From sequence record MH791411.1: 64,000 bases of DNA, one strand, 5' to 3'. Made by a program: the position numbers and the translations under genes. The stretch's first letter is position 1; every line of letters begins with the position of its first letter. The notes beneath the pieces were generated by a model. The model was given only the letters and a program-made list of their open reading frames with translations. It was not told the origin of the DNA and ran no database searches. The stretch comes from Escherichia phage Ecwhy_1. Of this stretch, positions 12,061 to 54,581 are shown piece after piece.

Positions 12061-12578
12061 TTATATAAACCCTTAATTTTCTGTCTATTATGTATATCAT
12101 TTTGCTGAATTTTCAAATTAGTAAGATTGTGTCTTACACCTTCAACGCCACGCATTATTTGTAACATAATTAGTGATTCGTCATATGTTAGAACATTGCT
12201 ATTATTATCGATATATACTTTCACTCCACTTTCAAGATAATCATTTTCTTTGGAGTTAAAGTTTCTAATAGCAAACTTAACGCCATTTGTTGCATCACTG
12301 AATACATATCGTTCCGCACCGTAGAATGTTTTTCCACGAAATAAACCGCCTTCTTCAAACTTCCAACGACTGGATTCATAATCATTAACGTAATCAATGA
12401 TTAATGGTAGCAAAGGGTGTTTGCTCAATTTATATTTTGCTTCTAACAGAACACGACGATCTTGATCTGTATTGATGATATCTTTAAGTGTGAAACTTTT
12501 TGATATAATTTTAAAGATAATTTCATGCCAAATTAAAGTACTGTTTTGTTTTCCAACTGGGCCAAAAAACATATTCAT
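12057..12578 (-). CDS. hypothetical protein, tandem paralog family member 2
   Basis: TDQDRRVLLEAKYKLSK ... SSRWKFEEGGLFRGKTFYG aligned to neighbours. Confidence 0.5.
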   Translation of the reverse strand: MNMFFGPVGKQNSTLIWHEIIFKIISKSFTLKDIINTDQDRRVLLEAKYKLSKHPLLPLIIDYVNDYESSRWKFEEGGLFRGKTFYGAERYVFSDATNGVKFAIRNFNSKENDYLESGVKVYIDNNSNVLTYDESLIMLQIMRGVEGVRHNLTNLKIQQNDIHNRQKIKGLYK

Positions 12579-12584
12579 TCCTCA

Positions 12585-15951: not shown

Positions 15952-15967
15952 ATTCTTTTTCCTTTAA

Positions 15968-16555
15968 TTACCAGCCTAATGTACCAGTTTGTGTTGGATT
16001 TCCAGTACTGACTGGGAAAGATGAACCTTTTTGTGTTGTACTTGGTCTGTATGTATTGAATCGTGATACGCGTTCAATGTTGATAGCAGTAATACCAGAA
16101 GTTCCAACGGTAATAGTCCCGATGAACATTATAATCTGTGATTCTTGTAATTGTGAAGTTGAGATTCTATAAATTGGCTCTCCCAGTACTAAAGTAGCGT
16201 ATACATATTGTGTTTGTGTGCCTGATGCCACTGTTGGTGCTGTCACTGCAACAACAGGGTAATTATAAAGATAGCCACCGATGAATGCAGGTATCTCTCG
16301 GTTAAAACGTAATGAATAACCGCTTGATGTAATTGACAAACTAGATACATCATAAAGTTCACCATATTGTGATAATGGTAAACCGTTAACAATAGAATCA
16401 ACTTCATCTTTTGTTAAGAGGGGGAATGTACATTCCCCATTTGCGTCTGTTCGATACGATACGTCATTAATATCACTAATAGATAGTCCAGTGTTTTTAT
16501 TCTGGACTACGATTTGTGACATAGCTTCGATATCGGATCTTATAATATATGCCAT
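15968..16555 (-). CDS. short tail-fibre-like protein
   Basis: 195 aa; carries only the shared N-terminal (LPLSQYGELYDV) and C-terminal (RFNTYRPSTTQKGSSFPVSTGNPTQTGT) blocks of the flanking fibre genes. Confidence 0.5.
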   Translation of the reverse strand: MAYIIRSDIEAMSQIVVQNKNTGLSISDINDVSYRTDANGECTFPLLTKDEVDSIVNGLPLSQYGELYDVSSLSITSSGYSLRFNREIPAFIGGYLYNYPVVAVTAPTVASGTQTQYVYATLVLGEPIYRISTSQLQESQIIMFIGTITVGTSGITAINIERVSRFNTYRPSTTQKGSSFPVSTGNPTQTGTLGW

Positions 16556-16567
16556 AAGATTAATCCT

Positions 16568-19264
16568 TTACCAATTGATTGTTCCTGTTTGTGACGGTAG
16601 ACCATAACTAACTGGGAATGAAGAACCAGCAGCTTCAAGAGACGCACCGAAAATATCCAATCTTGAACGTTTTTGTATGTTAACATTTGATATTTGTAGT
16701 GAGTTTGTTTGTATAGTACCTATCCAGAAAATATTATATGCTGTAGAACCAGTTTCTGAAATAACATCAGTTGTTATTACATATTTTGCATTACCTTGTT
16801 CCATTTTAACATATACATGAAATAATGTGTTTGCTGGATTAGCCTTAACTGTAGTTAAGTTTATACTAGTAATCGGTAATGTAAATGCTTTACCAGAAAG
16901 AATTACTGGAGTTTCTTCTGTGAAGTACACAATAAAACCTTGAGCAACGTCTTGTGAAACTACGTTAATCGGTGCACCTTGAGCAGTCCAGTTATTATAA
17001 TCAGCAATTGTAGTACCACATTTTTGGAAAGTCATTTTGTTTACATAGTCTATTGCTTGGAAATAACCAAAACCAATACCAGGTAAAGCTGCTGGTTGAA
17101 TACCTTGCTCATAACTTGCATGTGAACCACTGATAATAAAACTATCAAATTGTGCAGTTGCTTTTGTTACATATGCTCTGAATTGGTGTGTGTTTGTATT
17201 ACCAATAGTTGGGTGAGATAATGGGTCAGAACCACCTATGAAGTAGAAAGAACCACCATCATATATTGTTAAACCAACAGAAGACGAAGCAAAACTACCA
17301 TTACCATTTGGTGTAAAGTTACTTCCGTAAACGTTTTCTAGTACTAAACGCTTGAAGGTAATTGTAGTGATATTACCTGAACGTGTATTCACATTCACTT
17401 CAGCAATTCTAATATAGTTCTGATATGTATTTGTAACTGTACTTAGCATTACGAATGCAGGTATATCAGTTTGTTGTGGAACAAACAATGTCATATCTTT
17501 ATAAGCAGCGGAAGATAAGTTCCAGTCGCTTAGTACTTTGGCGTATTCAGCATTTCTGAAATTATCAAGTACAGATTGAGTAACACTAATGATACCAGTT
17601 CCGTTCATATTTTTATCATATGATAGTGATTGGGAATATCTCTGACCTACCATGAATATCCCACCATTTGTAGTAACATTATTACCACTAATGGAACTAA
17701 TAAAAACTCTGTTGTTCGTGTTATCTGTCACATTAGCACGTTCTGTTGTTGGCTCATAACCTTGTATGGTTCCACGTGATAAAGAATTAAACGTAAAGTT
17801 AGGAGTACTTTTATGAACTGCATAAGATGGACGGAATGCACCAGAACCAGTTGAACGAGAATACTGTTTAGTACTGTTCCCTGGAAGCAATTCTACGCCG
17901 TTAATAAAAGAACCAACTGCTGAACCAAATGAAGGACGAACTATGCCATTTCTGAAATCAGTTGAAATGTTCGCACGTACATTAATCATGCTATATATTG
18001 ATTGTGCAGTAAATTTAGCTTTCTGCATAAGCAATGGTTCTGCTAAGTTTGGACATGCAGTACAGAATACTTCACCTGTATTCAGATAATAATATGAACT
18101 GTAAATGTTTCTTGCACCGCTATGGTCATATAAAGGATCTTTGTTGAGAACGTTACCAGTAGCAACCAATGCCGAACCTGTGTTTGTAACAACAAATGGT
18201 GCAGCAAATGTACCAATATCGTTCCCATTATCCAAGTTACATTGTTTAGTACTCATGTTAAAATTGAAACTATAACTATGCTGTGGTCGGGTATTGTAGT
18301 TTGCCATAGTGAACCATGCGTCACCATTCATTCTGAATCGGAAGTTCTGCGTTCCTGGCTCCTGAGCAACATATAAATCGATAGATGTCATATAAATCCC
18401 CATACCAGCCAAATTTTGTGGTACATAGACATATGGCTTATCAGCAATATTAGTTGAGTTAACATGGTCAGTAATGATTATATTATTCTGAGCAGTATAT
18501 GTAGTATTGTAAAAAGTTTTTGTTGTCCATCCCGTGATTCGGGTAGCAGTATAAGTACCGTTTGCAATATTCAATACAACACGAACAACAACAATCTGTA
18601 GTTTGTTATTTTCATTAAGGACGTTGAATACATAAACTGAACCGTCTTCTGCCATCATAGCATACTCAATCCCACCTTCAGGTGAAATATCAGCTTGGTT
18701 CACAAAAAGACCACTATGTTGTGTATCATCCAATGTACCATTCGTTACTGATATAAACAACCCATTAGTATTGGTAGATGTGTCATTGTAACGACCTAAT
18801 AGTATTTTTGAATCAGTATTGTATAAACCAATAGCAACACGGTTTGCCCCAAAATAGCCAGGCTTATACTGACGGCTTGTATTAACAGTACGGCTCATAT
18901 CGGTAACGGATAATGCGTTCGCTAGGTAAGAATAAAATAAACCTTCAACACTACCGTTTGTACCACTACGTAATAGTACTAATGTGCCATCGTTTTCTAA
19001 AAGTATTTTGTTTCTACGTTGGGATTGGTTTTCTGATGCACCATTAAAATCACCAGATACCCCAGCAGGTAGATAGTTATGTGTACCATAATGCGAGATT
19101 GGAAGTAAACTAATTACATCAAGTAATTCTTCTTTGGAATATGTATCAATTTCCATATTACCATTAGCATCAAATACTTGATCATTGATGCCCTGTACTG
19201 TTCTTTTCCCTTTAACTGTCACATTATGAGTGACGTCTAAGCCACCATATATTTTCTTTGACAT
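16568..19264 (-). CDS. tail fibre / receptor-binding protein
   Basis: 898 aa; fibre-like composition; N-terminal LPISHYGTHNYLP and C-terminal VYFTEETPVILSG...SSFPVSYGLPSQTGT blocks shared with 13222..15951. Confidence 0.55.
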   Translation of the reverse strand: MSKKIYGGLDVTHNVTVKGKRTVQGINDQVFDANGNMEIDTYSKEELLDVISLLPISHYGTHNYLPAGVSGDFNGASENQSQRRNKILLENDGTLVLLRSGTNGSVEGLFYSYLANALSVTDMSRTVNTSRQYKPGYFGANRVAIGLYNTDSKILLGRYNDTSTNTNGLFISVTNGTLDDTQHSGLFVNQADISPEGGIEYAMMAEDGSVYVFNVLNENNKLQIVVVRVVLNIANGTYTATRITGWTTKTFYNTTYTAQNNIIITDHVNSTNIADKPYVYVPQNLAGMGIYMTSIDLYVAQEPGTQNFRFRMNGDAWFTMANYNTRPQHSYSFNFNMSTKQCNLDNGNDIGTFAAPFVVTNTGSALVATGNVLNKDPLYDHSGARNIYSSYYYLNTGEVFCTACPNLAEPLLMQKAKFTAQSIYSMINVRANISTDFRNGIVRPSFGSAVGSFINGVELLPGNSTKQYSRSTGSGAFRPSYAVHKSTPNFTFNSLSRGTIQGYEPTTERANVTDNTNNRVFISSISGNNVTTNGGIFMVGQRYSQSLSYDKNMNGTGIISVTQSVLDNFRNAEYAKVLSDWNLSSAAYKDMTLFVPQQTDIPAFVMLSTVTNTYQNYIRIAEVNVNTRSGNITTITFKRLVLENVYGSNFTPNGNGSFASSSVGLTIYDGGSFYFIGGSDPLSHPTIGNTNTHQFRAYVTKATAQFDSFIISGSHASYEQGIQPAALPGIGFGYFQAIDYVNKMTFQKCGTTIADYNNWTAQGAPINVVSQDVAQGFIVYFTEETPVILSGKAFTLPITSINLTTVKANPANTLFHVYVKMEQGNAKYVITTDVISETGSTAYNIFWIGTIQTNSLQISNVNIQKRSRLDIFGASLEAAGSSFPVSYGLPSQTGTINW

Positions 19265-43798: not shown

Positions 43799-44131
43799 TT
43801 ATTCCTCATCAACTTGAATAAGATATTCTAAACTTATTTCATCACCAAAGGCAGCGGCATCAATTGCATCGTGATTGATGTATTCTACTTGTGCAATTAA
43901 ACGTATACCGTATTTTAGAATTTCAATAATTCTCATTCTTGTATTGGAATTTATGTACTGGTAGTATGATTCATACTCTGGATCATCGTCCATTTCCGCA
44001 TATCGGTTGATGTACTCGTCAGTAAATTTTACTATCTTACCGACGAGTTCTGTTTCTGCACTTTTATAGAAATCATCTTTCATTTGATGCAACGCAATCA
44101 AGTACTGATTATATTGTGCAAGATGTTTCAT
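43799..44131 (-). CDS. hypothetical acidic protein
   Basis: Track ORF, 110 aa. Confidence 0.5.
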   Translation of the reverse strand: MKHLAQYNQYLIALHQMKDDFYKSAETELVGKIVKFTDEYINRYAEMDDDPEYESYYQYINSNTRMRIIEILKYGIRLIAQVEYINHDAIDAAAFGDEISLEYLIQVDEE

Positions 44132-44133
44132 TG

Positions 44134-44730
44134 TTAATCACAGCTACCGGAACTTGAACTAGAGCTTGAATCACAGCTAGAGCTATCATATGAACCAGTA
44201 TCAGCAGAAGAGATATATGGCGTTACGATTGCTGCGGTGGTGGCTGCTGTAATAATATGGGAAGTATGGTCGTGTGTACCTTGTTGTGGTTCATCTTGGA
44301 CTTTGTTTTTATTCTTCCCTTTAGTATAGCGAGCTTTCTTTGTAGTTTTGGTGTTCTTTGGTGCTTTAGTACTTTTCGGTGCTGCTTTAGGCTTTACTTC
44401 ATTAACTACAGGAACAACAGTAACATTAACTTTAGGGTCAGATTCATCAAGTGCATTGTGAACATTCACTTGCATTTGAACTTCAACTTTAAGTTCTTCT
44501 TGTTCTTCAGGAATAACTTTTTCAGGTTCTGGTGTAACCTGATCACGTTTATCATTAATCATGAAGTTGATATTACGTTCACCTAGCACTAATAAAGTAA
44601 CGATGGTGAGTACTGGGGTTAGTACTAGACTAAGTAGTACATAGCCGATAACACTACGATTGTAATTGTATGCAAGCATACCTGCAATAACTACACCAAG
44701 TACACTAATAACTGCTGCGATTGTTAACAT
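44134..44730 (-). CDS. membrane-anchored protein with Lys/Pro-rich linker and Ser/Cys-rich tail
   Basis: N-terminal TM helix, KAAPKSTKAPKNTKTTKK region, C-terminal SSSCDSSSSSSSGSCD. Confidence 0.5.
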   Translation of the reverse strand: MLTIAAVISVLGVVIAGMLAYNYNRSVIGYVLLSLVLTPVLTIVTLLVLGERNINFMINDKRDQVTPEPEKVIPEEQEELKVEVQMQVNVHNALDESDPKVNVTVVPVVNEVKPKAAPKSTKAPKNTKTTKKARYTKGKNKNKVQDEPQQGTHDHTSHIITAATTAAIVTPYISSADTGSYDSSSCDSSSSSSSGSCD

Positions 44731-45034
44731 ATTCTACTCCTTTGTATATAAATTTACCAATATCTTCGATGTATAAACAGATTCCACCTCGATCATTTAA
44801 CACAAGCCAATCACCAAAACCACAACTGATGTTGCATATATTAAATTCTTCAATACCATCCGGTGAATACGCAATGAATGGACATATTTCATCTGATATA
44901 CCATTTACATAGTTATTACATATTAAATCAAATATATGTGAACTATAAGAATTATCAGTACTGAAAATGTGCATTAATGAACTAGATAGAATTACTATTG
45001 TTTTTTCCCACATTTTTAAAAAATCGTTATTCAC
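44705..45034 (-). CDS. hypothetical protein
   Basis: Track ORF, 109 aa. Confidence 0.45.
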   Translation of the reverse strand: MNNDFLKMWEKTIVILSSSLMHIFSTDNSYSSHIFDLICNNYVNGISDEICPFIAYSPDGIEEFNICNISCGFGDWLVLNDRGGICLYIEDIGKFIYKGVEYVNNRSSY

Positions 45035-45091
45035 AACAACTACTCCATGTCAGTGTTGTAATGAAATTATATCACCGAATCAAGATATGTC

Positions 45092-45397
45092 TCATGAGAT
45101 TCGCATTTCATCCAGATATAAACTACATGCTTCGAAATTGTTGTCAGCACTTAAACCTAAATCAACCATCAGACCACAATGCGTTCCACAGAATTTCTTT
45201 ATGTATAGTTTCTTATTGTTTGTACCTAAGTCGTATACATATTCATTTTCGAAAATAGTTTTTAAATCATTACAAATACTTTTTACTATCTTCATTACAT
45301 CATTATGATACTCATATGGTATTCCATCTAGTTCATCAATGATAATAGCAAAACCATTGTCATAGTACTTTAGTTTATTGAATGTTTGTATATCCAT
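45092..45397 (-). CDS. hypothetical protein
   Basis: Track ORF, 101 aa. Confidence 0.45.
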   Translation of the reverse strand: MDIQTFNKLKYYDNGFAIIIDELDGIPYEYHNDVMKIVKSICNDLKTIFENEYVYDLGTNNKKLYIKKFCGTHCGLMVDLGLSADNNFEACSLYLDEMRIS

Positions 45398-45694
45398 TTA
45401 ATATATAATCTCACTTACTTCTATGGTGTAGACACCATCATCAGTCATTAATCTAACTGCAACTTTAATATTACTAGACATTCGTGTAACTATCAATCCA
45501 ATAATTATACCATTCTTTAAAGTACCATTATGGTATCTAACTTTTACTTCAGTTTTATTATCAATTAAGTATCTTCTAATTATGTGTATTTCCGTTCTAA
45601 ACAGTTCTAAATAAACTTCACTATACTCCTTATCAGAACCATCAGCACAGCTATACAATAAATGTACCTGTTCTAACAAAAGTTTTAAATTCAT
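45398..45694 (-). CDS. hypothetical protein
   Basis: Track ORF, 98 aa. Confidence 0.45.
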   Translation of the reverse strand: MNLKLLLEQVHLLYSCADGSDKEYSEVYLELFRTEIHIIRRYLIDNKTEVKVRYHNGTLKNGIIIGLIVTRMSSNIKVAVRLMTDDGVYTIEVSEIIY

Positions 45695-46050
45695 AAGAAC
45701 CTCACAGATTTAATATTACTTGTTACATGTTTAAACACAGTGTTATCGAACTTGTAAACAATTGTATTAAGTGATTTATGAAAATTAACCTCGCACACTA
45801 ATGCCTTGGAACCATTGATTGTACAGACCGTGGATGGTAAGTTGTTTGCTAATATCTCTTTTTCATCTAAACATAGTGAACTAATACAATCATAATAGAG
45901 AGGTTCAAGAACTTTTTCAGTACTAAGAAAATCGAAAGCAAGATCATCTATTTGTTTTATGTAATTGAATAAATTTTGATAGTACTCATTCATGGTCGAT
46001 CCTCTTGAATTTAGCATTATTCGAATAAGTATATGAATGTCCAAAATCAT
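45691..46050 (-). CDS. hypothetical protein
   Basis: Track ORF; start probably internal ATG (MNEYYQNLF) near 45993. Confidence 0.45.
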   Translation of the reverse strand: MILDIHILIRIMLNSRGSTMNEYYQNLFNYIKQIDDLAFDFLSTEKVLEPLYYDCISSLCLDEKEILANNLPSTVCTINGSKALVCEVNFHKSLNTIVYKFDNTVFKHVTSNIKSVRFL

Positions 46051-46240
46051 TTACACCATGCACATTCAATACACCGTCAATGAAATAGATTCGGTCGATT
46101 GTTAGTTCACGTTTATAATCCGAATCATCATACCAGCACAGAACACGAATACCTTTATACTTTGTAGTTAGCTCTTTTTCTAATGTAACTAAGTACTCGA
46201 TATAACTTTTGAATAGCTCTAAGTCCTGCTCAAACATCAT
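45986..46240 (-). CDS. hypothetical protein
   Basis: Track ORF, 84 aa. Confidence 0.45.
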   Translation of the reverse strand: MMFEQDLELFKSYIEYLVTLEKELTTKYKGIRVLCWYDDSDYKRELTIDRIYFIDGVLNVHGVNDFGHSYTYSNNAKFKRIDHE

Positions 46241-46497
46241 TGTTCCTCGTATAATTCCATGTCATCAACTCCAACTTGGCGAATTGCAGTACTTCTTTTA
46301 AATGTACCTTTTTCATATAAACATACAGTTAAACGTATTTCACACTTCAATGCACTGTAATAAATCATATCAATAACACCATATGTTTCATACATTTCTA
46401 AGTATACATTTCGTCCTAAGTACTTTTCTTCTAAATCAGTAATTAGACTATTGATAAGATTACCTATCTGTGATATATCTGTGTGAAATTTATCCAT
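46237..46497 (-). CDS. hypothetical protein
   Basis: Track ORF, 86 aa. Confidence 0.45.
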   Translation of the reverse strand: MDKFHTDISQIGNLINSLITDLEEKYLGRNVYLEMYETYGVIDMIYYSALKCEIRLTVCLYEKGTFKRSTAIRQVGVDDMELYEEQ

Positions 46498-46742
46498 TAC
46501 AATAATCCTCTCACATAAAACATTGATGAAAATAGATAATCTTCAGTACTAGAATTTAGTAGTTTATCAAAACTATATTTTTTATGCTTATTTTTATACA
46601 AAGACATTCTATAGAATCTTTCTATATTTTCTAAGTATTCATTTCGTAATAACATCTGTGTTGTTACATTCACTATAATGTACCTTAAAAGAAAAAGGGA
46701 CCAATATATGATCCCTTTTGTATTAGAAATTACCTTCAGCAA
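46497..46742 (-). CDS. hypothetical protein
   Basis: Track ORF, 81 aa. Confidence 0.4.
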   Translation of the reverse strand: MLKVISNTKGIIYWSLFLLRYIIVNVTTQMLLRNEYLENIERFYRMSLYKNKHKKYSFDKLLNSSTEDYLFSSMFYVRGLL

Positions 46743-47655
46743 CTTGCATTACTTTCAACCCAAGTAGCTTACGCCACATGAATACAACTTGTGATCTATC
46801 ATCATAAACCTTTTTAACATCGTAATGATCAACCACATTTTTCATGTACAGGTCGAATTTTACAACATCATCAGGACGTTTGTCATCGATGCCTCGCATA
46901 AACAACGCATCATAAGGAACACCCCAATTCTTAAGCCACTGTTCGGTATCAGCACGACACCCTTCAGTACGCCCACTCATGACGATAATCTTGCGTTTAT
47001 GAAAAACTGCTTCAGCGATAACAGATAAAATAACTTCTTCGTCTGGTGTATCCTGGAGTACAGTACTTTCATCGAACGGGTTACGTCCCCATTTATGAGC
47101 AAGAGTACCGTCGATATCAACGATAATAGCAGCTTCTCGTGAATTACCATAGTAACCAATGTGTAATGCCTTACTATAATAGTACGTATCTGCCATAGTG
47201 TCAATGATATTATCTTGTACTGAACGCTCACGCTGGAGGTTATATTTCTTACAAAGTTTTACGAACTCTTTAATCTTAAAGAATTCATGAACATCTGCAC
47301 CACGGTCTTCATTAGGTACAAAATCATCATAGAAGTTCTTTTCTTTGTAATCATAACCATTATCTATAGCCCATACTTTCCATAGATTACGGAAATGTTG
47401 TTTAAGGTTCGTATCGGATATGATGATGTTCCAACCATTCTCTGCTGCTGAATTTGCTGCACTGAACTGTAAATTAGTTACGTACTGCTCATTAGCATCG
47501 TTGAATTTGTAAGCATCATGTGACCCAGCCATAGATTCACGAATATCATCACGGTTGATGTTGATAGTCTTGGATTTGGCTTTTTTAATCTCTTGCACTG
47601 CCCATGTAGTTTTACCACACCCAGGCAATCCAACTGTTAGTGTGATAGTTGGCAT
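46723..47655 (-). CDS. pnk: polynucleotide 5'-kinase / 3'-phosphatase (T4 PseT-like)
   Basis: N-terminal P-loop TVGLPGCGKTTWA; HAD-type phosphatase motif AAIIVDIDGTLAH in C-terminal half; 310 aa. Confidence 0.85.
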   Translation of the reverse strand: MPTITLTVGLPGCGKTTWAVQEIKKAKSKTININRDDIRESMAGSHDAYKFNDANEQYVTNLQFSAANSAAENGWNIIISDTNLKQHFRNLWKVWAIDNGYDYKEKNFYDDFVPNEDRGADVHEFFKIKEFVKLCKKYNLQRERSVQDNIIDTMADTYYYSKALHIGYYGNSREAAIIVDIDGTLAHKWGRNPFDESTVLQDTPDEEVILSVIAEAVFHKRKIIVMSGRTEGCRADTEQWLKNWGVPYDALFMRGIDDKRPDDVVKFDLYMKNVVDHYDVKKVYDDRSQVVFMWRKLLGLKVMQVAEGNF

Positions 47656-47658
47656 CCA

Positions 47659-47988
47659 TTAATCCTCTAAAAATTTAACATGCTCTATATTATGATAGGT
47701 GAGCCATTCCTGTGGTGTTCCCTTGCGTATTAAAACACCAATATACGCAATACCATTAATTAGACCATTACTATCAGTATTCACATCAACTTTCACAATC
47801 TCGGAATCGTACCAGTGTTTGAATGTGTAATCCCAACATCTGACTTTCTTTCCAATAAGATTGCTCTTGTATTTGTCAATCATTTCATCGACGATAGTTT
47901 GTACTGAATTTTTAATTTCAGCTTCTACTGACTTTATATATAGTAAATTACTTTGTGCATTGTTTATCATTGTATTTCCCAATCCCAA
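47659..47988 (-). CDS. hypothetical protein
   Basis: Track ORF, 109 aa. Confidence 0.45.
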   Translation of the reverse strand: MGLGNTMINNAQSNLLYIKSVEAEIKNSVQTIVDEMIDKYKSNLIGKKVRCWDYTFKHWYDSEIVKVDVNTDSNGLINGIAYIGVLIRKGTPQEWLTYHNIEHVKFLED

Positions 47989-48184
47989 ATCGCTTGGAGA
48001 TTTTCACAAGTACAGATTCATCACAACGAATACTAGCAGTATCATTGGATGAACTGTACTTTAATGGGGTCCACTGTAATTGAGATTCTTCTAGGAACTT
48101 GATACATCTGAAATAATCTTTCAAGGAAAGAAATTTAACTACTGACATATCCTGAACAATACTATGCTGAACTTCAACTTTCAT
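47948..48184 (-). CDS. hypothetical protein
   Basis: Track ORF, 78 aa. Confidence 0.4.
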   Translation of the reverse strand: MKVEVQHSIVQDMSVVKFLSLKDYFRCIKFLEESQLQWTPLKYSSSNDTASIRCDESVLVKISKRFGIGKYNDKQCTK

Positions 48185-48193
48185 ATGAACTCC

Positions 48194-48451
48194 TTATAGT
48201 GGGTCGAATTTATTTTCACGTTTTGATGTATAGCGAGTTACATCATGTATTCTCGGCTTAACACCTTTTGGTTTCCTTTTCTTCTTGTATTCAGTACTAC
48301 TACACCCGAAAGTATTCTCGATTCGTTTCTTACTAATCTTCACACCTTTCTTAGAGCGTTTGTGCTGTAATTCATCGATTTCTTCTTGTATTTTCCTGAA
48401 TTCTGTCGGAGAAAGGGAACCGTCATTTTTATACTTAGGTTTAGCCATCAC
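48194..48451 (-). CDS. small basic protein
   Basis: 85 aa, Lys/Arg-rich. Confidence 0.45.
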   Translation of the reverse strand: MMAKPKYKNDGSLSPTEFRKIQEEIDELQHKRSKKGVKISKKRIENTFGCSSTEYKKKRKPKGVKPRIHDVTRYTSKRENKFDPL

Positions 48452-48477
48452 TTCTCCTTGTGCTAGGCTAGATAGTA

Positions 48478-49620
48478 CTAAAAATCCTTTAGTACAATTT
48501 TCATGTACTTAATAAGAGTCTCTTTGTAATCGACTTTCTTATTGTTGTACATTGCAAAGGCCAAGCCCTGACGATTCAGTTCATTAGTTAAACACTCCTG
48601 AACCTTCTTAGCGAATTCCTTTCGCTCCAAGTGCTTGTGTTCCTTGACGAAGCTTTCAACTTCATCTTGTAAAGCATTATAGCACGAAAAGACTAGTTGT
48701 TCCATTCTTAATATCTTTTGGGTAGCATATTCGTCAGTACTGAACAACTGTTTTAAATCATCACTCGAACCATTTAATACAGCTTCATATAAATGGGAAT
48801 CGAATATAATACTGTCTTTCGTTAAATGCAAAGAACAATACCAGTCGGTTTTGATTTTGCACATTGTACCATTATTTAGGATGCACACAAAACCTTCAAT
48901 GTCAAGCATTTTCTTAACTTCTTCAACACTTTCTTTGAATGTAGCACGAACAGGGAAAGTGTAATGAATATCTTTACCTGTCATGTTAGTACTGTACTGT
49001 GCAAGGCATGGAAACTTGTTACGTAATGCAGAACCACATAATAGTTCACCACTCTTGCGATGGCGAACGTTTAGTACAAATATTTGTTCAACCTGGTATG
49101 GTAATACAATACGGTACTCTGGACTTGTATACTCCAGATTAACAGTATAGCCCAAACGGTCTGCTTCGTCAATGTATTGATACAAATTTTGGTTCTCATT
49201 GAGAAGACGAGTACTGTTAATCGCATGGTCTGAATACAATGCAGTATGTGATTTACAACGAATTACACCATCATTATCACGGTAAGTACTGATTACTGAA
49301 CCATCCAACTTAGGCATCACTACTGCAATGTCATCGAATGTGGTATCAGCAGGGAACATTGTAGCAGGATTTTCGTAAGCATTGAAGAACTTTTTCATAG
49401 TACGAGCAGCACAACGAATCATATCACCGTCTTCATCAATTTCCCACATAGAACCACGGGTTTCTAATGCATTGGGTTGCATGAAATCGGTATATGATGC
49501 TAGACGATAACTGAATACACGATATGTTCCACCAGCAGGACTTTTATGATCCACATAAAAGAAAGCCTCACGAGTATTACATAAGTGCATTAAATCTTCA
49601 TATATTTGTAAAAGGGTCAT
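48478..49620 (-). CDS. rnlA: RNA ligase 1 (T4 gp63-like)
   Basis: FFYVDHKSPAGGTYRVFSYRLASYTDFMQPNALETRGSMWE parallels T4 Rnl1 [41 protein letters not shown]; motif I lysine in PKLDGSVISTY; 380 aa. Confidence 0.85.
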   Translation of the reverse strand: MTLLQIYEDLMHLCNTREAFFYVDHKSPAGGTYRVFSYRLASYTDFMQPNALETRGSMWEIDEDGDMIRCAARTMKKFFNAYENPATMFPADTTFDDIAVVMPKLDGSVISTYRDNDGVIRCKSHTALYSDHAINSTRLLNENQNLYQYIDEADRLGYTVNLEYTSPEYRIVLPYQVEQIFVLNVRHRKSGELLCGSALRNKFPCLAQYSTNMTGKDIHYTFPVRATFKESVEEVKKMLDIEGFVCILNNGTMCKIKTDWYCSLHLTKDSIIFDSHLYEAVLNGSSDDLKQLFSTDEYATQKILRMEQLVFSCYNALQDEVESFVKEHKHLERKEFAKKVQECLTNELNRQGLAFAMYNNKKVDYKETLIKYMKIVLKDF

Positions 49621-49925
49621 TTTATTACCTCTATATCTACATCTGTGCCATAGTAGGAAACGTAACCATTATCTGAATTACATTGAATTGATAACTCTGA
49701 TTCATAGTATGTTACTTTGATCACTGTTAGAACTTTTTCATCAATTTTTCCCGTTAAATAATCCATTTCACGAACACGAACTTTGGTTCCTTTTGGGAGT
49801 TCTTGTGCAATTTTATTAACAAGTTCAAAAGCAGCTTCTTCAAGTGTGTGCAACAATTGCAATCTATCTTGGATATTCATATTATTTCCACCAAGTTGTA
49901 TCACGACCACCAGACAAAGATTCAT
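49617..49925 (-). CDS. hypothetical protein
   Basis: Track ORF; start probably internal ATG (MNIQDRL) near 49880. Confidence 0.45.
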   Translation of the reverse strand: MNLCLVVVIQLGGNNMNIQDRLQLLHTLEEAAFELVNKIAQELPKGTKVRVREMDYLTGKIDEKVLTVIKVTYYESELSIQCNSDNGYVSYYGTDVDIEVIK

Positions 49926-50571
49926 TGTACTGATGCCTGAAATTAGTATTTGGATTATTTGTCATTGTACTAATAAAATCAAATTTAACATTCTCTTGAA
50001 TGTAATTAATAACATTATCTTTAAATTTAATAGTACTGAAATCTAAATCCAAATGTTCATACAATACCGGATGACAAAACTCATGTGTACGCAACGATGG
50101 CATGGTATCCTTAATGTATTGCACAGTGTTAATCATTGCATTGTATTCAGGCATAGCACGCATCATCATTAGCTGAAAGTGTTCTTCCTCTGACATTGAC
50201 TCATCCAAATCAATAACGACTTCATCATTTTTAGAGTCATATACTTTAATGGAACTCTTGGTTGGATCAAGCATAGCCCACTCTGGATACAGGCATGTTT
50301 TCCAAAAAGGATTATTGCACTGAAACATACTAATTAGATTTTGATTTTTATCAAAAATAGCAAACCCAAGATCCGAACTTGGCTGTACTTCACATACACA
50401 AATATCATAAGGGGAGTCTTCAGTACTGAATGAACCAACTACATTTGATATATGTGAATATGGAGTTTCTCTTGATTTTAATTCAAAGGCTCTCTCCATA
50501 CGATTAACCTGTGGTTGTAATGTAATTACACCCCTCAGTACATATAAAATTCTATCTAAATCTTTAATCAA
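49882..50571 (-). CDS. hypothetical protein with HExxH motif
   Basis: 229 aa; RTHEFCHPVLYEH contains an HExxH zinc-peptidase-type motif; weak. Confidence 0.45.
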   Translation of the reverse strand: MIKDLDRILYVLRGVITLQPQVNRMERAFELKSRETPYSHISNVVGSFSTEDSPYDICVCEVQPSSDLGFAIFDKNQNLISMFQCNNPFWKTCLYPEWAMLDPTKSSIKVYDSKNDEVVIDLDESMSEEEHFQLMMMRAMPEYNAMINTVQYIKDTMPSLRTHEFCHPVLYEHLDLDFSTIKFKDNVINYIQENVKFDFISTMTNNPNTNFRHQYNESLSGGRDTTWWK

Positions 50572-50575
50572 AATT

Positions 50576-50875
50576 CTATCCTCTTAGTTTAATAGTACTG
50601 GCTGGATAATCTACCATAGTACTATCTGGTAATCCTATACAGTAATAAGGAAAATATCCCATCATATTAATACCAATTAACATTCCTGTTTTATATGAAG
50701 TATTAATTTCATAGTGGTCGTCTATATCAACCGCCAGTCCATATAAGGATATGTTACAATCCTTGATGTATCGTTCAAAGATTTTATACATTGATGGGTA
50801 TACAGTTCCATTGGATTCTCTCACTACATCAGCCAACAACTTTATAGTACTGTTAATTAAATCTATACTAATCAT
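50576..50875 (-). CDS. hypothetical protein
   Basis: Track ORF, 99 aa. Confidence 0.45.
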   Translation of the reverse strand: MISIDLINSTIKLLADVVRESNGTVYPSMYKIFERYIKDCNISLYGLAVDIDDHYEINTSYKTGMLIGINMMGYFPYYCIGLPDSTMVDYPASTIKLRG

Positions 50876-50919
50876 CTTTGTACCTGCGAAAAAAGACCAG
50901 CAAACGCTGGCCTAAAAAT

Positions 50920-51201
50920 TTAAATTATTTCATATAGACAATATACACCATCAACGCCATCACAAGGAAAATCAACATAGAAATTCACACTAACAGTATC
51001 ATAATCAATCTCAGTGATGCGTCCGGTTTTACCTACACTCTTCACGAATAGGTCAGAGCCAAGATATACAAACTCAAACTCATCTGCATACTCTTTTATA
51101 ATATCAGCAAAATCACAACCATATCTGGGATCAGTATTAATAATCTCAAGATATAATGTAATGTATTGTTCGTATGACCATGTGTGTAGGTAAAAATCCA
51201 T
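50920..51201 (-). CDS. hypothetical protein
   Basis: Track ORF, 93 aa. Confidence 0.45.
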   Translation of the reverse strand: MDFYLHTWSYEQYITLYLEIINTDPRYGCDFADIIKEYADEFEFVYLGSDLFVKSVGKTGRITEIDYDTVSVNFYVDFPCDGVDGVYCLYEII

Positions 51202-51210
51202 AACAGTTCC

Positions 51211-51948
51211 TTAGAAATATACCATACCCATCAATTCTGAATCTTCAGGGCGAGTATAGCCTTGTTTCTTAACTTTAAAGTAGAAGGATTCATTGTCTTC
51301 TAAATTATAACGTTTCTTCAAGCAACGGGTATATGTCTGGCAATTAGGATGAACCCATTCATATATATGAACACCATCTTCATTATAACCATTTATACTA
51401 CAACGGTTGCCTTCATGTTTCTTGTAGTTCTTGCTTTTCTCGGTAAATTCTTTTACAGCAGTAGTACTTGGTGATTTATATTCAAAAGGAACTTCAGTCA
51501 TACGGAAATAATAATATTGATCGTCTTCATCATATCCCAAGAGCACTGTGTTAGTTTCACGTACATTGTAATGATTCTTACTTTTCAATTCATTTTCATA
51601 TATATCTTGAAGTACTTCTGCAAATACTGTAGTACTGTCAGCATTTGGGTTGGATACACCTGATACTCTTCGTTCAATAATAAAATCAGTATATTTGCGG
51701 TCTTCTGCAATGTCTTCATTCATATAAAGACTAACGAACTTATCCTTGTACGTCTTTACACTGTATTGTTTACTTTGAACTTCGCTATATACATCTGCTA
51801 ACATATTCTCCTGACCGCACTGCACACCACTTACAGAATAAGCACATGCATGTTCAGCCATCACTGATGTTAACATTTGAAAATTTGCCATGTTTAATTC
51901 ATTCGCCATCTCTGTAGCGAAACGGATACGGTCAAGCACTTTACACAC
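51211..51948 (-). CDS. hypothetical protein
   Basis: Track ORF, 245 aa. Confidence 0.5.
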   Translation of the reverse strand: MCKVLDRIRFATEMANELNMANFQMLTSVMAEHACAYSVSGVQCGQENMLADVYSEVQSKQYSVKTYKDKFVSLYMNEDIAEDRKYTDFIIERRVSGVSNPNADSTTVFAEVLQDIYENELKSKNHYNVRETNTVLLGYDEDDQYYYFRMTEVPFEYKSPSTTAVKEFTEKSKNYKKHEGNRCSINGYNEDGVHIYEWVHPNCQTYTRCLKKRYNLEDNESFYFKVKKQGYTRPEDSELMGMVYF

Positions 51949-51997
51949 TCCTTGTGTTAGTTATTGTTCCTCATCCAATATTATATCACTACTTGAG

Positions 51998-52300
51998 CTA
52001 TTGTCCCGCTTTGTAACAATAAAGATTCTCAAATTTAAAGTTCTCTATATCACATTCCTCACGAACTCGGTTCTTGTTCCAGAACAGAATACGAATCCTT
52101 TCATAATCACGATAAACACTAATAATACTTTTGTGTTTAGATTTGTAGTACTGCTGTATAACCTGAAGAGTTATATCCCTCAACTTGGACTTAATTGGGT
52201 AAGACAAATCATTACTAGTTGTTATGGCATAAACCATCTTCATTGTTTCAGCAACAAGTACTTCATTCGATTTATTTGCCATTAAAATCCTTACAAACAC
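51998..52300 (-). CDS. hypothetical protein
   Basis: Track ORF, 100 aa. Confidence 0.45.
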   Translation of the reverse strand: MFVRILMANKSNEVLVAETMKMVYAITTSNDLSYPIKSKLRDITLQVIQQYYKSKHKSIISVYRDYERIRILFWNKNRVREECDIENFKFENLYCYKAGQ

Positions 52301-52441
52301 TATGTAAAGTAAATCCTAAACCAACACCTACGAATGGGAATAGTAAATTAATGTACCAGACATTCATTGTCGAAAGGAAACAAATCCCACTTACTGTCAG
52401 TACTGCTAGTGAGAAAAGACTCCAGATAAAAAATAATGCTC

Positions 52442-52732
52442 TCATAAAAATGTTACCTCGTTAGATGGGTAGTTACGATATATTTGTGAATTATGTTCCA
52501 CACCATGAATTGTTATATGCCCGTTGTAGAAAAAAGTAATATCTACAACTTTGAGTTCTTTACGTTTTTTAGTACTGAAATATCTACCCACTAACGCAGC
52601 ATATATATAATCCCTGTACTCTTGAGTAATGAATTTATACATATTATGATTTGCACTACACTTTTCATCATAAGTATTAGTATATTCTTTCATCAGTATA
52701 GCATATGTTTTTTGTATCAATATAATATTCAT
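52442..52732 (-). CDS. hypothetical protein
   Basis: Track ORF, 96 aa. Confidence 0.45.
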   Translation of the reverse strand: MNIILIQKTYAILMKEYTNTYDEKCSANHNMYKFITQEYRDYIYAALVGRYFSTKKRKELKVVDITFFYNGHITIHGVEHNSQIYRNYPSNEVTFL

Positions 52733-52992: not shown

Positions 52993-53185
52993 GGATACGC
53001 TCACAATTAAGGCAATAAATGCACTCAATGTCAGGTCGCCATGATTTATCAAAATCTTTGTGCTGTTCTTCAGTGTATTCCGAATCATCATTGATGGGAA
53101 AGAAATCACCAGCACCAGTGGCCCAGTCTGAATCTAAACGGAAACGAGCTAATTGAGTACTGTTGCAATATGGACATTTATTCAA
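52985..53185 (-). CDS. small zinc-ribbon protein
   Basis: CPYCNS ... CIYCLNC, two CxxC pairs; 66 aa. Confidence 0.45.
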   Translation of the reverse strand: MNKCPYCNSTQLARFRLDSDWATGAGDFFPINDDSEYTEEQHKDFDKSWRPDIECIYCLNCERIHD

Positions 53186-53462
53186 AATTTATTCCTTCTA
53201 ACTGATATACGTTTAATGAAAATGACCCACTATTATTATCGCATCTGAAACACAGTGTTAAAGAACCATTAAAACTAACAACATCAGTACATATACATTT
53301 TTCACCATTGGATATGATAGATTTTCCTATATATAAATCTCTTACTATAGTACGGTAATGTTGCCATAAAAAATAATACACACTTTCATAGTACTCATCT
53401 TTTACATATGACAAGTATAAGAATTTATAAAATACTTGTATTTCCTTTAAGTTGTTTTTCAT
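53178..53462 (-). CDS. hypothetical protein, tandem five-member paralog family
   Basis: N-terminus MKNNLKEIQVFYKFLYL matches M..NLNDIQFTYKFLY of the four upstream genes. Confidence 0.5.
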   Translation of the reverse strand: MKNNLKEIQVFYKFLYLSYVKDEYYESVYYFLWQHYRTIVRDLYIGKSIISNGEKCICTDVVSFNGSLTLCFRCDNNSGSFSLNVYQLEGINFE

Positions 53463-53736
53463 TCTCCAACTCCAGTAAATTTACACCAATCCAATCAACA
53501 TCACTATCAGTACTTAATTCCAATCGTAGCTTACCGCTATGACTAACAATATCGCGGAATTTGTATATTTTATTATCACGAACTATACACAAATCATGGT
53601 AATATTCATGTAATTCATCCAAAAACTTTATCCATACCGAACGATAGATTTCACCGTAGAGATATTCTCCAGCATCAACCGTAGCGTATTGGATATACAA
53701 AAATTTGTATGTGAATTGTATATCATTAAGATTCAT
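53425..53736 (-). CDS. hypothetical protein, tandem five-member paralog family
   Basis: MNLNDIQFTYKFLYIQY. Confidence 0.5.
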   Translation of the reverse strand: MNLNDIQFTYKFLYIQYATVDAGEYLYGEIYRSVWIKFLDELHEYYHDLCIVRDNKIYKFRDIVSHSGKLRLELSTDSDVDWIGVNLLELENEKQLKGNTSIL

Positions 53737-53746
53737 ATGTCAATCC

Positions 53747-54058
53747 TTATAGGTCCGTTAACTTCAAAACTTTGATCTCCATAAATTCCCTATCAGTTTT
53801 TTCAAGAAATTCTACATGGATAATACCTTGATAAGATTTGACACCTGAATATTCGAATATATCATCTCCATCAGTGTAAGTACTGTAATTCTTTTTTATA
53901 TATTCAGCAATAGAATCTAAGTAATCATAGTAATTATGAATAAATGGTGATTCTTTTGATTCTACATGTTCACCAATCTTCCCACTAAAAAGATACATGT
54001 CATACAAACCGTATATATTTTTATATGTGAATTGAACATCATTCAAATTTAATTTCAA
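53747..54058 (-). CDS. hypothetical protein, tandem five-member paralog family
   Basis: MKLNLNDVQFTYKNIYGLY. Confidence 0.5.
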   Translation of the reverse strand: MKLNLNDVQFTYKNIYGLYDMYLFSGKIGEHVESKESPFIHNYYDYLDSIAEYIKKNYSTYTDGDDIFEYSGVKSYQGIIHVEFLEKTDREFMEIKVLKLTDL

Positions 54059-54315
54059 GGGAATATCTCCAGAGGAACACTCGTAAATCCAAAATCTGTG
54101 AAGAACTGTACCTCAACTTTACCATCGAGCTTAATGATTATATCTGAAAATTCTGCATGATCGTTATTAATAATTACAGTACTGAATTTTTCTTTAATCC
54201 TCTCACGCACAGTATTAATCATTTCATTACATGTATCTTCTAAAAATATACTATTATTTTTATTTGCTAGGTCACGAATGCACTTGAATGTTAATTGGAA
54301 ATCTTTATAATTCAT
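54055..54315 (-). CDS. hypothetical protein, tandem five-member paralog family
   Basis: MNYKDFQLTFKCI; weakest member. Confidence 0.45.
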   Translation of the reverse strand: MNYKDFQLTFKCIRDLANKNNSIFLEDTCNEMINTVRERIKEKFSTVIINNDHAEFSDIIIKLDGKVEVQFFTDFGFTSVPLEIFP

Positions 54316-54581
54316 ATATTCACCAAATCCACAGAGAATAGGTCGTTATCAAATTTATATGAAAGTACTAATCTACCACCGAAACTATCTACTCTAAGTA
54401 TCTTTCGTTTTTTTCCATTAATGACAATTTCAGTATTAACAAAATACTCACGTAATTCTTCTAGATAATTTGACCATATTTTATGGGTAAACGCATTTTT
54501 ATTAATTGTGTTAGTACTTCGGTGATTGTGGTGTAATTTAAATAATTCCATATAAGTGAATTGTATATGTTTGTAATTCAT
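54312..54581 (-). CDS. hypothetical protein, tandem five-member paralog family
   Basis: MNYKHIQFTYMELFKL. Confidence 0.5.
   Translation of the reverse strand: MNYKHIQFTYMELFKLHHNHRSTNTINKNAFTHKIWSNYLEELREYFVNTEIVINGKKRKILRVDSFGGRLVLSYKFDNDLFSVDLVNI

What the first reader, a model, noticed from the sequence alone, without database searches (positions are those of the whole stretch)
46723..49620. T4-type tRNA repair pair (Pnk and Rnl1) separated by three small ORFs
Polynucleotide kinase/phosphatase and RNA ligase 1 together repair tRNAs cleaved by host anticodon nucleases such as PrrC; both are present with strong motif support, which suggests the host carries such nucleases. Three small unknown ORFs sit between them and could be accessory or anti-nuclease factors.
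Basis: established knowledge. Interest (0 to 1): 0.4.

Follow-up and report, generated by a model that had tools for sequence, protein, structure and literature searches.

The report
T4-type RNA repair genes, jumbo coliphage
This stretch of a giant E. coli phage genome carries the well-known phage enzyme pair, a polynucleotide kinase/phosphatase and an RNA ligase 1, that can mend cut tRNAs; this is ordinary and already annotated in close relatives, and the only new detail is that two tiny genes of unknown function always sit between the enzymes in this phage group.

Summary
The window is 100% identical to Escherichia phage fEgEco12, a 375-kb jumbo phage of the Asteriusvirus/RaK2-like group.

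- **Pnk:** 46723-47655(-) encodes a 310-aa T4-type polynucleotide kinase/3'-phosphatase.
- **Rnl1:** 48478-49620(-) encodes a 380-aa T4 RnlA-family RNA ligase, including the C-terminal tRNA-specificity domain.
- **Catalytic residues:** the catalytic lysine and the HAD aspartates are intact. Two minor deviations exist: Rnl1 motif Ia Lys is His, and the Pnk lid Arg is offset by one residue.
- **Intervening genes:** three small genes lie between the enzymes. All eight genes from g179 to pnk are tightly packed between two terminator hairpins.

The pair is already annotated in near-identical phages and was described as tRNA repair for RaK2 (2013) and for jumbo phages generally (2021). T4 itself has the same order, rnlA, four ORFs, then pseT.

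What is new concerns the small genes. g183 (basic, 84 aa) and g184 (78 aa, ββαββα) are clade-restricted orphan genes. They lie between Rnl1 and Pnk in every relative examined, with g184 missing once, and both are under purifying selection. g185 is variable.

Nothing shows what they do. A role in repair or as anti-nuclease factors remains speculation. The claim about host nucleases cannot be tested here. Low interest.

The parts
46723..47655 (-). Polynucleotide 5'-kinase / 3'-phosphatase, T4 PseT type, 310 aa. It has an N-terminal P-loop kinase domain and a C-terminal HAD (DxDxT) phosphatase domain.
   Evidence: Pfam HAD_PNKP 5.8e-43 and AAA_33 1.1e-12. PHROG 505 3.5e-94. PDB 1ltq T4 Pnk 5.8e-38 and 4xrp Pnkp1 2.3e-29. 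Catalytic residues mapped. 33% identity to T4 PseT.
47659..47970 (-). g185, 103 aa, acidic to neutral, unknown function. It is the variable occupant of the slot just upstream of pnk. It has weak, transitive similarity to g181, the gene just upstream of rnl1.
   Evidence: PHROG 31355 2.8e-56. No Pfam or NCBIfam hit. Only 34% identical to the G17 counterpart and absent from Erwinia, Mimasvirus, Munch and XaC1 relatives. Linked to g181 only through RaK2_463 at about 1e-5; the direct BLASTP is not significant. The 'transcriptional regulator' label in the GenBank record has no support here.
47948..48184 (-). g184 (family F3), 78 aa, a small alpha/beta protein (ββαββα) of unknown function. It is conserved between rnl1 and pnk throughout the RaK2-like jumbo phages.
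48194..48448 (-). g183 (family F2), 84 aa, very basic (pI 10.1, 25 Lys+Arg), mostly helical, unknown function. It lies immediately downstream of rnl1 in every relative examined.
48478..49620 (-). RNA ligase 1, T4 RnlA family, 380 aa. It has a nucleotidyltransferase domain and the C-terminal Rnl1 domain.
   Evidence: Pfam RNA_lig_T4_1 and T4_Rnl1_C. PHROG 562 7.7e-108. PDB 2c5u 7.3e-57. NCBIfam TIGR02308 291 bits, above its cut-off. Motifs. 35% identity to T4 RnlA.
46693..46719 (-). Intrinsic-terminator-like hairpin plus T-run, 4 nt after the pnk stop codon. It is the probable 3' end of the transcription unit.
   Evidence: Pattern scan. RNA fold -14.4 kcal/mol, z -4.5. The equivalent site is annotated as a terminator in phage G17 and in Salmonella phage Munch.
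50894..50913 (-). Terminator-like hairpin upstream of g179. It marks the upstream boundary of the tightly packed block g179-g180-g181-rnl1-g183-g184-g185-pnk.
   Evidence: Pattern scan. RNA fold -12.9 kcal/mol, z -3.9. Gene junctions of -23 to +29 nt read from the sequence.
49617..49880 (-). g181, 87 aa, unknown function. Its stop codon overlaps the rnl1 start. It is a weak relative of g185 and of RaK2 ORF463, which holds the same position upstream of RaK2 rnlA.

Best explanation
The region is the RNA end-healing and sealing module of a RaK2-like jumbo coliphage, homologous to T4 pseT and rnlA.

**Proposed mechanism (inferred from T4).**
1. A host ribonuclease cuts an RNA, in the T4 paradigm a tRNA anticodon loop, leaving 2',3'-cyclic phosphate and 5'-OH ends.
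2. The HAD domain of Pnk removes the 3' phosphate, and its P-loop domain phosphorylates the 5'-OH.
3. Rnl1, adenylylated on Lys104, seals the break. Its C-terminal domain gives a preference for tRNA.

**Organisation.** The two genes lie in the same order and orientation as in T4, rnl1 first and pnk last. They sit in a tightly packed, probably co-transcribed block that ends at a terminator right after pnk.

**The genes in between.**
- g183 (basic, helical) and g184 (small alpha/beta) are conserved, lineage-restricted proteins of unknown function. They belong to a stable cassette Rnl1-g183-(F8)-g184-Pnk.
- g185 is a variable insert.

**Shown versus inferred.** Shown: homology, intact motifs, gene order and its conservation, purifying selection. 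Inferred: enzymatic activities, tRNA as the substrate, a counter-defence role, co-transcription. Any link between the small proteins and repair is neither shown nor excluded.
For: - **Enzyme identity:**
- **Catalytic residues:**
- **Source phage:** the window equals phage fEgEco12. Orthologues at 92-99% DNA identity are annotated as RNA ligase and polynucleotide kinase in PBECO4, 121Q, G17, phAPEC6 and others.
- **Same order in T4:** rnlA, alc, pseT.3, pseT.2, pseT.1, pseT.
- **Cassette conserved** in 8 genera or lineages of RaK2-like phages, 15 IMG/VR loci and 2 divergent metagenome contigs.
- **Packing and terminators:**
- **Purifying selection (dN/dS):** Rnl1 0.06, g183 0.02, g184 0.17, Pnk 0.08.
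- **Literature:** RaK2 gp470 and gp464 were named as a tRNA repair pathway (PMC3622015). Rnl1 plus PNK-HAD were reviewed as jumbo-phage RNA repair (PMC7824862). T4 repair of PrrC-cut tRNA-Lys is covered in PMC10264068.
Against: - No biochemical or genetic data exist for this phage or its genus.
- T4 Rnl1 Lys119 (motif Ia), essential in T4 from my memory of Wang, Ho and Shuman 2003, is His125 here. It is His or Gln in most of the clade.
- The Arg matching T4 Pnk Arg126 is displaced by one position, next to a 20-residue insertion.
- T4 gp63 also has a ligase-independent tail-fibre attachment function, so conservation of rnl1 need not be due to RNA repair.
- The window has no tRNA genes, and no host nuclease is known for this phage.
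- The transcription unit is inferred from hairpins and spacing only. The promoter scan was no better than shuffled sequence.
Confidence: 0.85

Rival explanations
1. g183 and/or g184 are dedicated parts of the repair pathway. They could be a basic RNA- or tRNA-binding adaptor, a small regulator or scaffold linking Pnk and Rnl1, or inhibitors of a host anticodon nuclease. On this reading the real functional unit is a four- to five-gene module, not a pair.
For: - Both genes are always located between rnl1 and pnk. This holds for g183 even where Rnl1 has diverged to 39% identity.
- g183 is the best-conserved gene of the cassette: 88-95% against CBB where Rnl1 is 77-86%, with dN/dS 0.02.
- g184 is more conserved between Asteriusvirus and Eneladusvirus (69%) than Rnl1 (58%) or Pnk (56%).
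- Flanking small ORFs turn over while these two persist.
- g183 is strongly basic.
Against: - There is no homology or fold link to any RNA-binding, nuclease-inhibitor or ligase-associated protein.
- Neither family occurs outside this one phage lineage. The association has therefore arisen once, and it cannot be separated from inherited synteny of a conserved genome backbone. g177 and downstream genes such as the DNA ligase are also syntenic.
- g184 is absent from contig L010, which keeps Rnl1 and Pnk.
- RaK2-type g183 lacks the central 17 residues.
- The T4 intervening genes are functionally unrelated to repair.
Confidence: 0.2
2. The two enzymes are kept mainly for purposes other than countering host tRNA cleavage. 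Rnl1 would act as a tail-fibre attachment catalyst, as T4 gp63 does. Pnk would act as a general 3'-phosphatase or kinase for DNA or RNA ends in nucleotide and nucleic-acid metabolism.
For: - PHROG 562 is named 'RNA ligase and tail fiber protein attachment catalyst'.
- T4 gp63 is bifunctional (annotation).
- The neighbourhood is rich in DNA and nucleotide metabolism genes: DNA ligase, phosphoesterases, nucleotide reductase, dCMP deaminase, thymidine kinase.
Against: - All ligase catalytic motifs and both Pnk active sites are under purifying selection. This would be unnecessary for a purely structural or chaperone role.
- The strict co-occurrence and adjacency of a healing enzyme with a sealing enzyme is what a repair pathway predicts.
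- The tRNA-specificity C-domain is retained.
Confidence: 0.12
3. The three small ORFs are unrelated passenger genes. Jumbo phages carry many small early or middle genes, and these happen to lie between rnl1 and pnk. g183 and g184 would be conserved for an independent function such as host takeover or nucleic-acid binding.
For: - T4 precedent: alc, spanins and pseT.1 lie between rnlA and pseT.
- The slot accepts insertions and losses: g185, G17_484, RaK2 ORFs 467-469, F8 present or absent.
- No functional signature ties the ORFs to RNA repair.
Against: The persistence of g183 and g184 in exactly this slot, amid turnover of neighbours, is at least suggestive of co-regulation.
Confidence: 0.6

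Closest known systems
Bacteriophage T4 PseT (polynucleotide kinase/phosphatase) and RnlA/gp63 (RNA ligase 1), the tRNA-Lys repair pathway that counters the PrrC anticodon nuclease
   Same: - Same two-domain Pnk and same Rnl1 architecture, including the C-terminal domain.
- 33-35% identity, with catalytic residues conserved.
- Same gene order and strand, rnlA upstream and pseT downstream, with a few small ORFs between.
- Similar nucleotide-metabolism neighbourhood.
   Different: - The intervening genes are not homologous. T4 has alc, pseT.3, pseT.2 and pseT.1; this phage has g183, g184 and g185.
- Rnl1 motif Ia Lys119 is His.
- Pnk carries an insertion of about 20 residues in the kinase domain.
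- No Stp or PrrC context is known for this phage.
RaK2-like jumbo phage RNA repair genes (Klebsiella phage RaK2 gp464 RnlA and gp470 PseT; PBECO4, 121Q, G17, phAPEC6 orthologues)
   Same: - Orthologous genes and the same cassette.
- Already interpreted as a tRNA repair pathway in PMC3622015 and surveyed in PMC7824862.
   Different: - Number and identity of intervening ORFs differ: three here, four in G17 and 121Q, five in RaK2. Most other genera have three, with F8 in place of g185.
- In the fEgEco12 record Rnl1 is labelled hypothetical.
Bacterial Pnkp-based RNA repair systems (e.g. Capnocytophaga Pnkp1 of the Pnkp1-Rnl-Hen1 system, PDB 4xrp)
   Same: The Pnk kinase-phosphatase module is detectably homologous (2.3e-29).
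   Different: - Those systems use a different ligase arrangement and a Hen1 methyltransferase that makes the repaired junction nuclease-resistant.
- No Hen1 was seen among the annotated genes of the window.

Membership tests
T4 PseT-type polynucleotide kinase/phosphatase | N-terminal P-loop (GxxGxGK[ST]) kinase domain with catalytic Asp35 and Arg38 equivalents | tested here: met
   G9-L-P-G-C-G-K15-T16, D36 and R39 align with T4 G9..K15-S16, D35 and R38. Pfam AAA_33 1.1e-12.
T4 PseT-type polynucleotide kinase/phosphatase | Lid arginine equivalent to T4 Arg126 | tested here: inconclusive
   T4 R126 aligns with Q141. A clade-invariant Arg (R142) lies one position later, next to an insertion of about 20 residues. 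A register shift is probable but not proven.
T4 PseT-type polynucleotide kinase/phosphatase | C-terminal HAD phosphatase with the DxDxT nucleophile motif and T4 R176, S211, R213, D254, K258, D277, D278 equivalents | tested here: met
   D180-I-D182-G-T184, R191, S227, R229, D262, K266, D285, D286. Pfam HAD_PNKP 5.8e-43, full length.
T4 PseT-type polynucleotide kinase/phosphatase | 5'-OH kinase and 3'-phosphatase / 2',3'-cyclic phosphodiesterase activity | not testable with these tools
   Requires enzyme assays.
T4 RnlA (Rnl1) RNA ligase family | Motif I KxDG with the adenylylated lysine | tested here: met
   K104-L-D-G-S aligns with T4 K99-E-D-G-S.
T4 RnlA (Rnl1) RNA ligase family | Motifs III, IV (EGxV) and V (KxK), plus the Rnl1-specific upstream residues R54, K75 and F77 | tested here: met
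   E163, E242-G243, K255 and K257, R55, K77, F79.
T4 RnlA (Rnl1) RNA ligase family | Motif Ia Ser-Lys (T4 S118-K119; the essentiality of Lys119 is from my memory of Wang, Ho and Shuman 2003, not checked here) | tested here: not met
   The window has K123-S124-H125. The clade shows KSH, KSQ (XbC2) or KSK (XaC1). This is a substitution at one conserved position, and whole-protein family thresholds are still passed.
T4 RnlA (Rnl1) RNA ligase family | C-terminal all-helical Rnl1 domain (tRNA specificity in T4) and a whole-protein score above the curated family cut-off | tested here: met
   Pfam T4_Rnl1_C 1.7e-16 over residues 268-379. NCBIfam equivalog TIGR02308 291 bits against a cut-off of 242.
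T4 RnlA (Rnl1) RNA ligase family | ATP-dependent sealing of 3'-OH/5'-PO4 RNA ends, preferentially in a tRNA anticodon loop | not testable with these tools
   Requires enzyme assays.
Phage counter-defence against host anticodon nucleases (T4/PrrC paradigm) | Healing and sealing enzymes encoded together and co-expressed | tested here: met
   Both are present 0.8 kb apart on one strand, in a tightly packed block bounded by terminator hairpins. Co-expression itself is inferred, not measured.
Phage counter-defence against host anticodon nucleases (T4/PrrC paradigm) | A host nuclease (PrrC, RloC or other) that restricts pnk or rnl1 mutants | not testable with these tools
   The host genome is not in the window, and no genetics are available for this phage group in the papers read.

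The most novel reading that the evidence does not exclude
In RaK2-like jumbo phages the RNA repair unit would be a conserved four- to five-gene module, not a two-enzyme pair. The orphan proteins g183 (basic, helical, the most conserved gene of the cassette) and g184 (small ββαββα domain) would act with Pnk and Rnl1. Possible roles are a tRNA-binding adaptor or chaperone and a scaffold or regulator, or inhibitors of a host anticodon nuclease. Either way they would be previously unrecognised components of phage RNA repair.
Probability: 0.15. Interest if true: 0.5.

Novelty: already known. Interest (0 to 1): 0.15.

Why it matters
- **Already known:** the Pnk and Rnl1 pair is textbook phage biology. 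It is annotated in close relatives and discussed for this phage group, so confirming it adds little.
- **Annotation clean-up:** in the fEgEco12 record Rnl1 is 'hypothetical protein' and Pnk is 'polynucleotide 5'. In phage Sharanji the Pnk orthologue is described as a 'zeta toxin' lysis protein.
- **A small, testable lead:** two lineage-restricted small proteins are fixed between the enzymes across every relative examined (8 named phages, 15 IMG/VR loci and 2 metagenome contigs), with g184 missing from one contig. If they do take part in RNA repair or nuclease evasion, they would extend a pathway thought to need only two proteins. That is relevant now that tRNA-targeting defences (PrrC, RloC, PARIS, retrons, Cas13) are recognised as widespread.

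Tried and rejected
1. **Homology of the intervening ORFs to the T4 intervening genes** (alc, pseT.3, pseT.2, pseT.1). BLASTP found nothing, and hhalign of the g184 profile against PseT.1 gave probability 0.4%. Rejected.
2. **A gene fusion of g184 with Pnk in Xanthomonas phage XbC2**, suggested by the feature list. The g184 homologue is merely unannotated there and is a separate ORF. Rejected.
4. **g183 as a ribosomal-protein-like protein.** Only stray sub-threshold Pfam hits. Rejected.
6. **A large paralogous family of 'N-helix plus beta' small ORFs including g185, g181, g188, g189 and g191.** phmmer and an iterated HMM link only g185 and g181, and only transitively through RaK2_463. Mostly rejected.
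7. **Structured RNAs or tRNAs in the region.** None found.
8. **Sigma-70 promoters.** No enrichment over shuffled sequence.
9. **Literature check of Rnl1 Lys119 essentiality.** Nothing found in the searchable library.
10. **Host anticodon nuclease check.** Not possible from the window.
Full report
**1. What the window is**

A megablast of window 46000-50600 gives a 100% identical match over its full length to Escherichia phage fEgEco12 (PP777464.1, 374,733 bp). It also matches some 30 other E. coli and Salmonella jumbo phages of the Asteriusvirus group at 92-99.7% identity, including PBECO4, 121Q, G17, phAPEC6, SP27 and Sharanji. G+C is 32-38% throughout, and almost all genes are on the minus strand.

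**2. The observation**

The minus strand between 46723 and 49620 carries five ORFs:
- Pnk, 46723-47655, 310 aa.
- g185, 47659-47970, 103 aa from the ATG used in the GenBank record.
- g184, 47948-48184, 78 aa.
- g183, 48194-48448, 84 aa.
- Rnl1, 48478-49620, 380 aa.

Pnk matches:
- Pfam HAD_PNKP (5.8e-43, full-length domain) and AAA_33 (1.1e-12).
- PHROG 505 'polynucleotide kinase' (3.5e-94).
- The T4 Pnk crystal structure sequence 1ltq (5.8e-38).

Rnl1 matches:
- Pfam RNA_lig_T4_1 and T4_Rnl1_C.
- PHROG 562 (7.7e-108).
- T4 Rnl1 structures 2c5u, 5tt6 and 9do4 (about 1e-56).
- The NCBIfam equivalog TIGR02308 'T4 RnlA family RNA ligase', above its curated cut-off (291 vs 242 bits).

**3. Careful alignment of catalytic residues**

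Pnk keeps:
- The P-loop (G9..G12..G14-K15-T16).
- The general acid D36 and R39 (T4 D35 and R38).
- The HAD nucleophile motif D180-I-D182-G-T184.
- The T4 R176, S211, R213, D254, K258, D277 and D278 equivalents (R191, S227, R229, D262, K266, D285, D286).

Rnl1 keeps:
- R55, K77 and F79.
- Motif I K104-L-D-G-S (T4 K99).
- E163, motif IV E242-G243, and motif V K255 and K257.

Two deviations are worth recording:
- T4 Pnk R126 aligns with Q141. An Arg invariant in the whole clade (R142) lies one residue later, next to an insertion of about 20 residues, so a register shift is likely.
- T4 Rnl1 motif Ia Lys119 is His125 here. My recollection of Wang, Ho and Shuman 2003 is that this lysine is essential, but I could not verify that in the searchable library. 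Across the clade the position is H in most members, Q in XbC2 and K in XaC1.

**4. Surroundings and expression unit**

Gene junctions are tight:
- g181 and rnl1 overlap by 4 nt.
- rnl1 to g183: 29 nt.
- g183 to g184: 9 nt.
- g184 and g185 overlap by 23 nt.
- g185 to pnk: 3 nt.

Shine-Dalgarno sequences precede g183, g184 and pnk.

Two terminator-like features bound the block:
- A strong hairpin plus T-run lies 4 nt after the pnk stop (46719-46693; -14.4 kcal/mol, z -4.5). The same site is annotated as a terminator in G17 and after the Pnk gene of Salmonella phage Munch.
- Another terminator-like hairpin lies at 50913-50894, just upstream of g179.

The block g179-g180-g181-rnl1-g183-g184-g185-pnk is therefore plausibly one transcription unit. 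This is inferred, not shown. The sigma-70 consensus scan found no more sites than in shuffled sequence.

There are no tRNA genes in the window and no Rfam matches in 44000-52500. The wider neighbourhood is nucleotide and DNA metabolism: DNA ligase, two phosphoesterases, nucleotide reductases, dCMP deaminases, thymidine kinase, Sir2-like, NUDIX and PhoH-like genes. This resembles the T4 context of pseT and rnlA.

**5. The three small ORFs**

None has a Pfam or NCBIfam match. Each belongs to a PHROG of unknown function.

*Comparative panel.* I compared eight phages: fEgEco12, G17, Erwinia pEa_SNUABM_12, Xanthomonas XbC2 and XaC1, Klebsiella RaK2, Salmonella Munch and Pectobacterium CBB. They share a common cassette: Rnl1, F2 (= g183), an optional F8 of about 75 aa, F3 (= g184), optional variable inserts, Pnk, then a terminator.
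- F2 and F3 are present in all eight.
- F8 is absent from Asteriusvirus and RaK2.
- g185 is specific to Asteriusvirus. It is only 34% identical between fEgEco12 and G17, which also has an extra ORF.
- RaK2 has three other ORFs in the slot.

*Further loci.* Fifteen IMG/VR loci and two divergent metagenome contigs show the same colinear order. Rnl1 in those two contigs is 49% and 39% identical to the window's. F2 is present in 17 of 17 and F3 in 16 of 17; F3 is missing from L010.

*g184 (F3).*
- Found in 70 phage records at 60% identity or more.
- Found in 35 clusters of the 5.8-billion-protein set.
- An exhaustive profile search of 1.84 billion representatives found only three 50%-identity clusters, plus spurious hits to long repetitive proteins. 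It is an orphan family of this lineage.
- AlphaFold (pLDDT 83) gives a ββαββα sandwich.

*g183 (F2).*
- It has 25 Lys+Arg in 84 residues and a pI of 10.1.
- It is found in 55 phage records and 63 protein clusters, all from this lineage.
- It is predicted as one long helix plus a short helix (pLDDT 78).
- It has no structural or profile match.

*Selection.* Both are under purifying selection against G17. dN/dS is 0.02 for g183 and 0.17 for g184, compared with 0.06 for Rnl1 and 0.08 for Pnk. Among Mimasvirus and Eneladusvirus relatives, F2 is the best-conserved gene of the cassette.

*g185.* It is weakly and only transitively related to g181, the gene just upstream of rnl1. The link runs through RaK2 ORF463, which occupies the same position upstream of RaK2 rnlA.

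**6. How it most likely works**

By homology with T4, Pnk heals 2',3'-cyclic-phosphate and 5'-OH ends left by metal-independent ribonucleases. Rnl1, adenylylated on K104, then seals the break. The retained C-terminal domain suggests tRNA anticodon-loop substrates. This is established knowledge for T4 (Amitsur et al. 1987, as cited). The steps are inferred for this phage.

The counter-defence role is plausible, given the growing list of tRNA-targeting defences in E. coli (PMC10264068, PMC11464382, PMC12409363). It is untested for any RaK2-like phage. The host nuclease cannot be inferred from the window.

Sharanji, a member of the same genus, carries seven tRNAs and none for lysine (PMC11895373). 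That is compatible with reliance on repair for the classical PrrC target, but it proves nothing.

**7. Comparison with what is known**

T4 has the same order and strand, with four unrelated genes in between: alc, the spanin genes pseT.3 and pseT.2, and pseT.1. None is similar to g183, g184 or g185.

The RaK2 paper already named gp470 (Pnk) and gp464 (RNA ligase) as a tRNA repair pathway (PMC3622015). Iyer et al. 2021 reviewed Rnl1 plus PNK-HAD enzymes as jumbo-phage RNA repair (PMC7824862). GenBank records of near-identical phages annotate both genes. The finding is therefore already known.

The one element I did not find in any of the papers I read is the conserved pair of lineage-specific small proteins between the enzymes. 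Because both families occur only in this one lineage, their fixed position cannot be distinguished from inherited synteny. The T4 precedent also shows that genes between rnlA and pseT need not relate to repair.
- Direct role in repair or nuclease evasion: about 15-20%.
- Independent function: about 60%.

**8. Verdict**

Novelty: already known. Interest: low (0.15).

Noticed in passing
window 46723-47655 and 48478-49620; records PP777464.1 and OR545507.1: Several public annotations of these genes look wrong. In the fEgEco12 record Rnl1 is 'hypothetical protein', Pnk is truncated to 'polynucleotide 5', and g185 is called 'transcriptional regulator' without support from Pfam or NCBIfam. In phage Sharanji the Pnk orthologue is annotated 'zeta toxin' and discussed as a lysis protein. 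The Zeta_toxin Pfam hit here is sub-threshold (19.7 bits against a cut-off of 22.3).
   Followed up: partly
window 48478-49620 (Rnl1 residue 125): Rnl1 motif Ia reads K-S-H instead of the T4 K-S-K (Lys119). The clade shows His in most members, Gln in XbC2 and Lys in XaC1. This may indicate relaxed or altered chemistry at a position reported as essential in T4 (from my memory).
   Followed up: partly
window 46723-47655 (Pnk residues ~109-130): Relative to T4 Pnk there is an insertion of about 20 residues in the kinase domain, just before the lid region. It is conserved in the RaK2-like clade.
   Followed up: no
window 13222-19264 (-): Two large paralogous genes of about 900 aa each (13222-15951 and 16568-19264, phmmer 2.6e-58) flank a 195-aa relative (15968-16555). 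All are annotated hypothetical (g242-g244).
   Followed up: no
window 53178-54581 (-), 11551-13151 (-), 3740-5714 (-): Tandem arrays of small paralogous genes: four ORFs of about 90-100 aa at 53.2-54.6 kb, three of about 170-190 aa at 11.5-13.2 kb, and a pair at 3.7-5.7 kb. These are unexplored gene-family expansions of the kind expected in jumbo phages.
   Followed up: no
window 51211-51939 (-), g177: A 242-aa protein with no Pfam match is conserved at 48-70% identity. It lies upstream of the Rnl1 cassette in most RaK2-like relatives, including the divergent metagenome contigs. Its function is unknown.
   Followed up: partly
L004:6386-6616, L009:3264-3488, L011:5242-5469 (family F8): A third conserved small ORF of about 75 aa lies between g183-like and g184-like genes in most genera. 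It has been lost from Asteriusvirus (this window) and RaK2 and has no Pfam match.
   Followed up: partly
window 44134-44730, 45398-45694, and near window 1-600: Several product names in the fEgEco12 record look implausible for a phage and are probably weak-hit artefacts: 'ribosome biogenesis protein Nop10', 'SAM-dependent 2'-O-MTase domain-containing protein' (98 aa), 'viral L protein' and 'nucleocapsid protein'.
   Followed up: no
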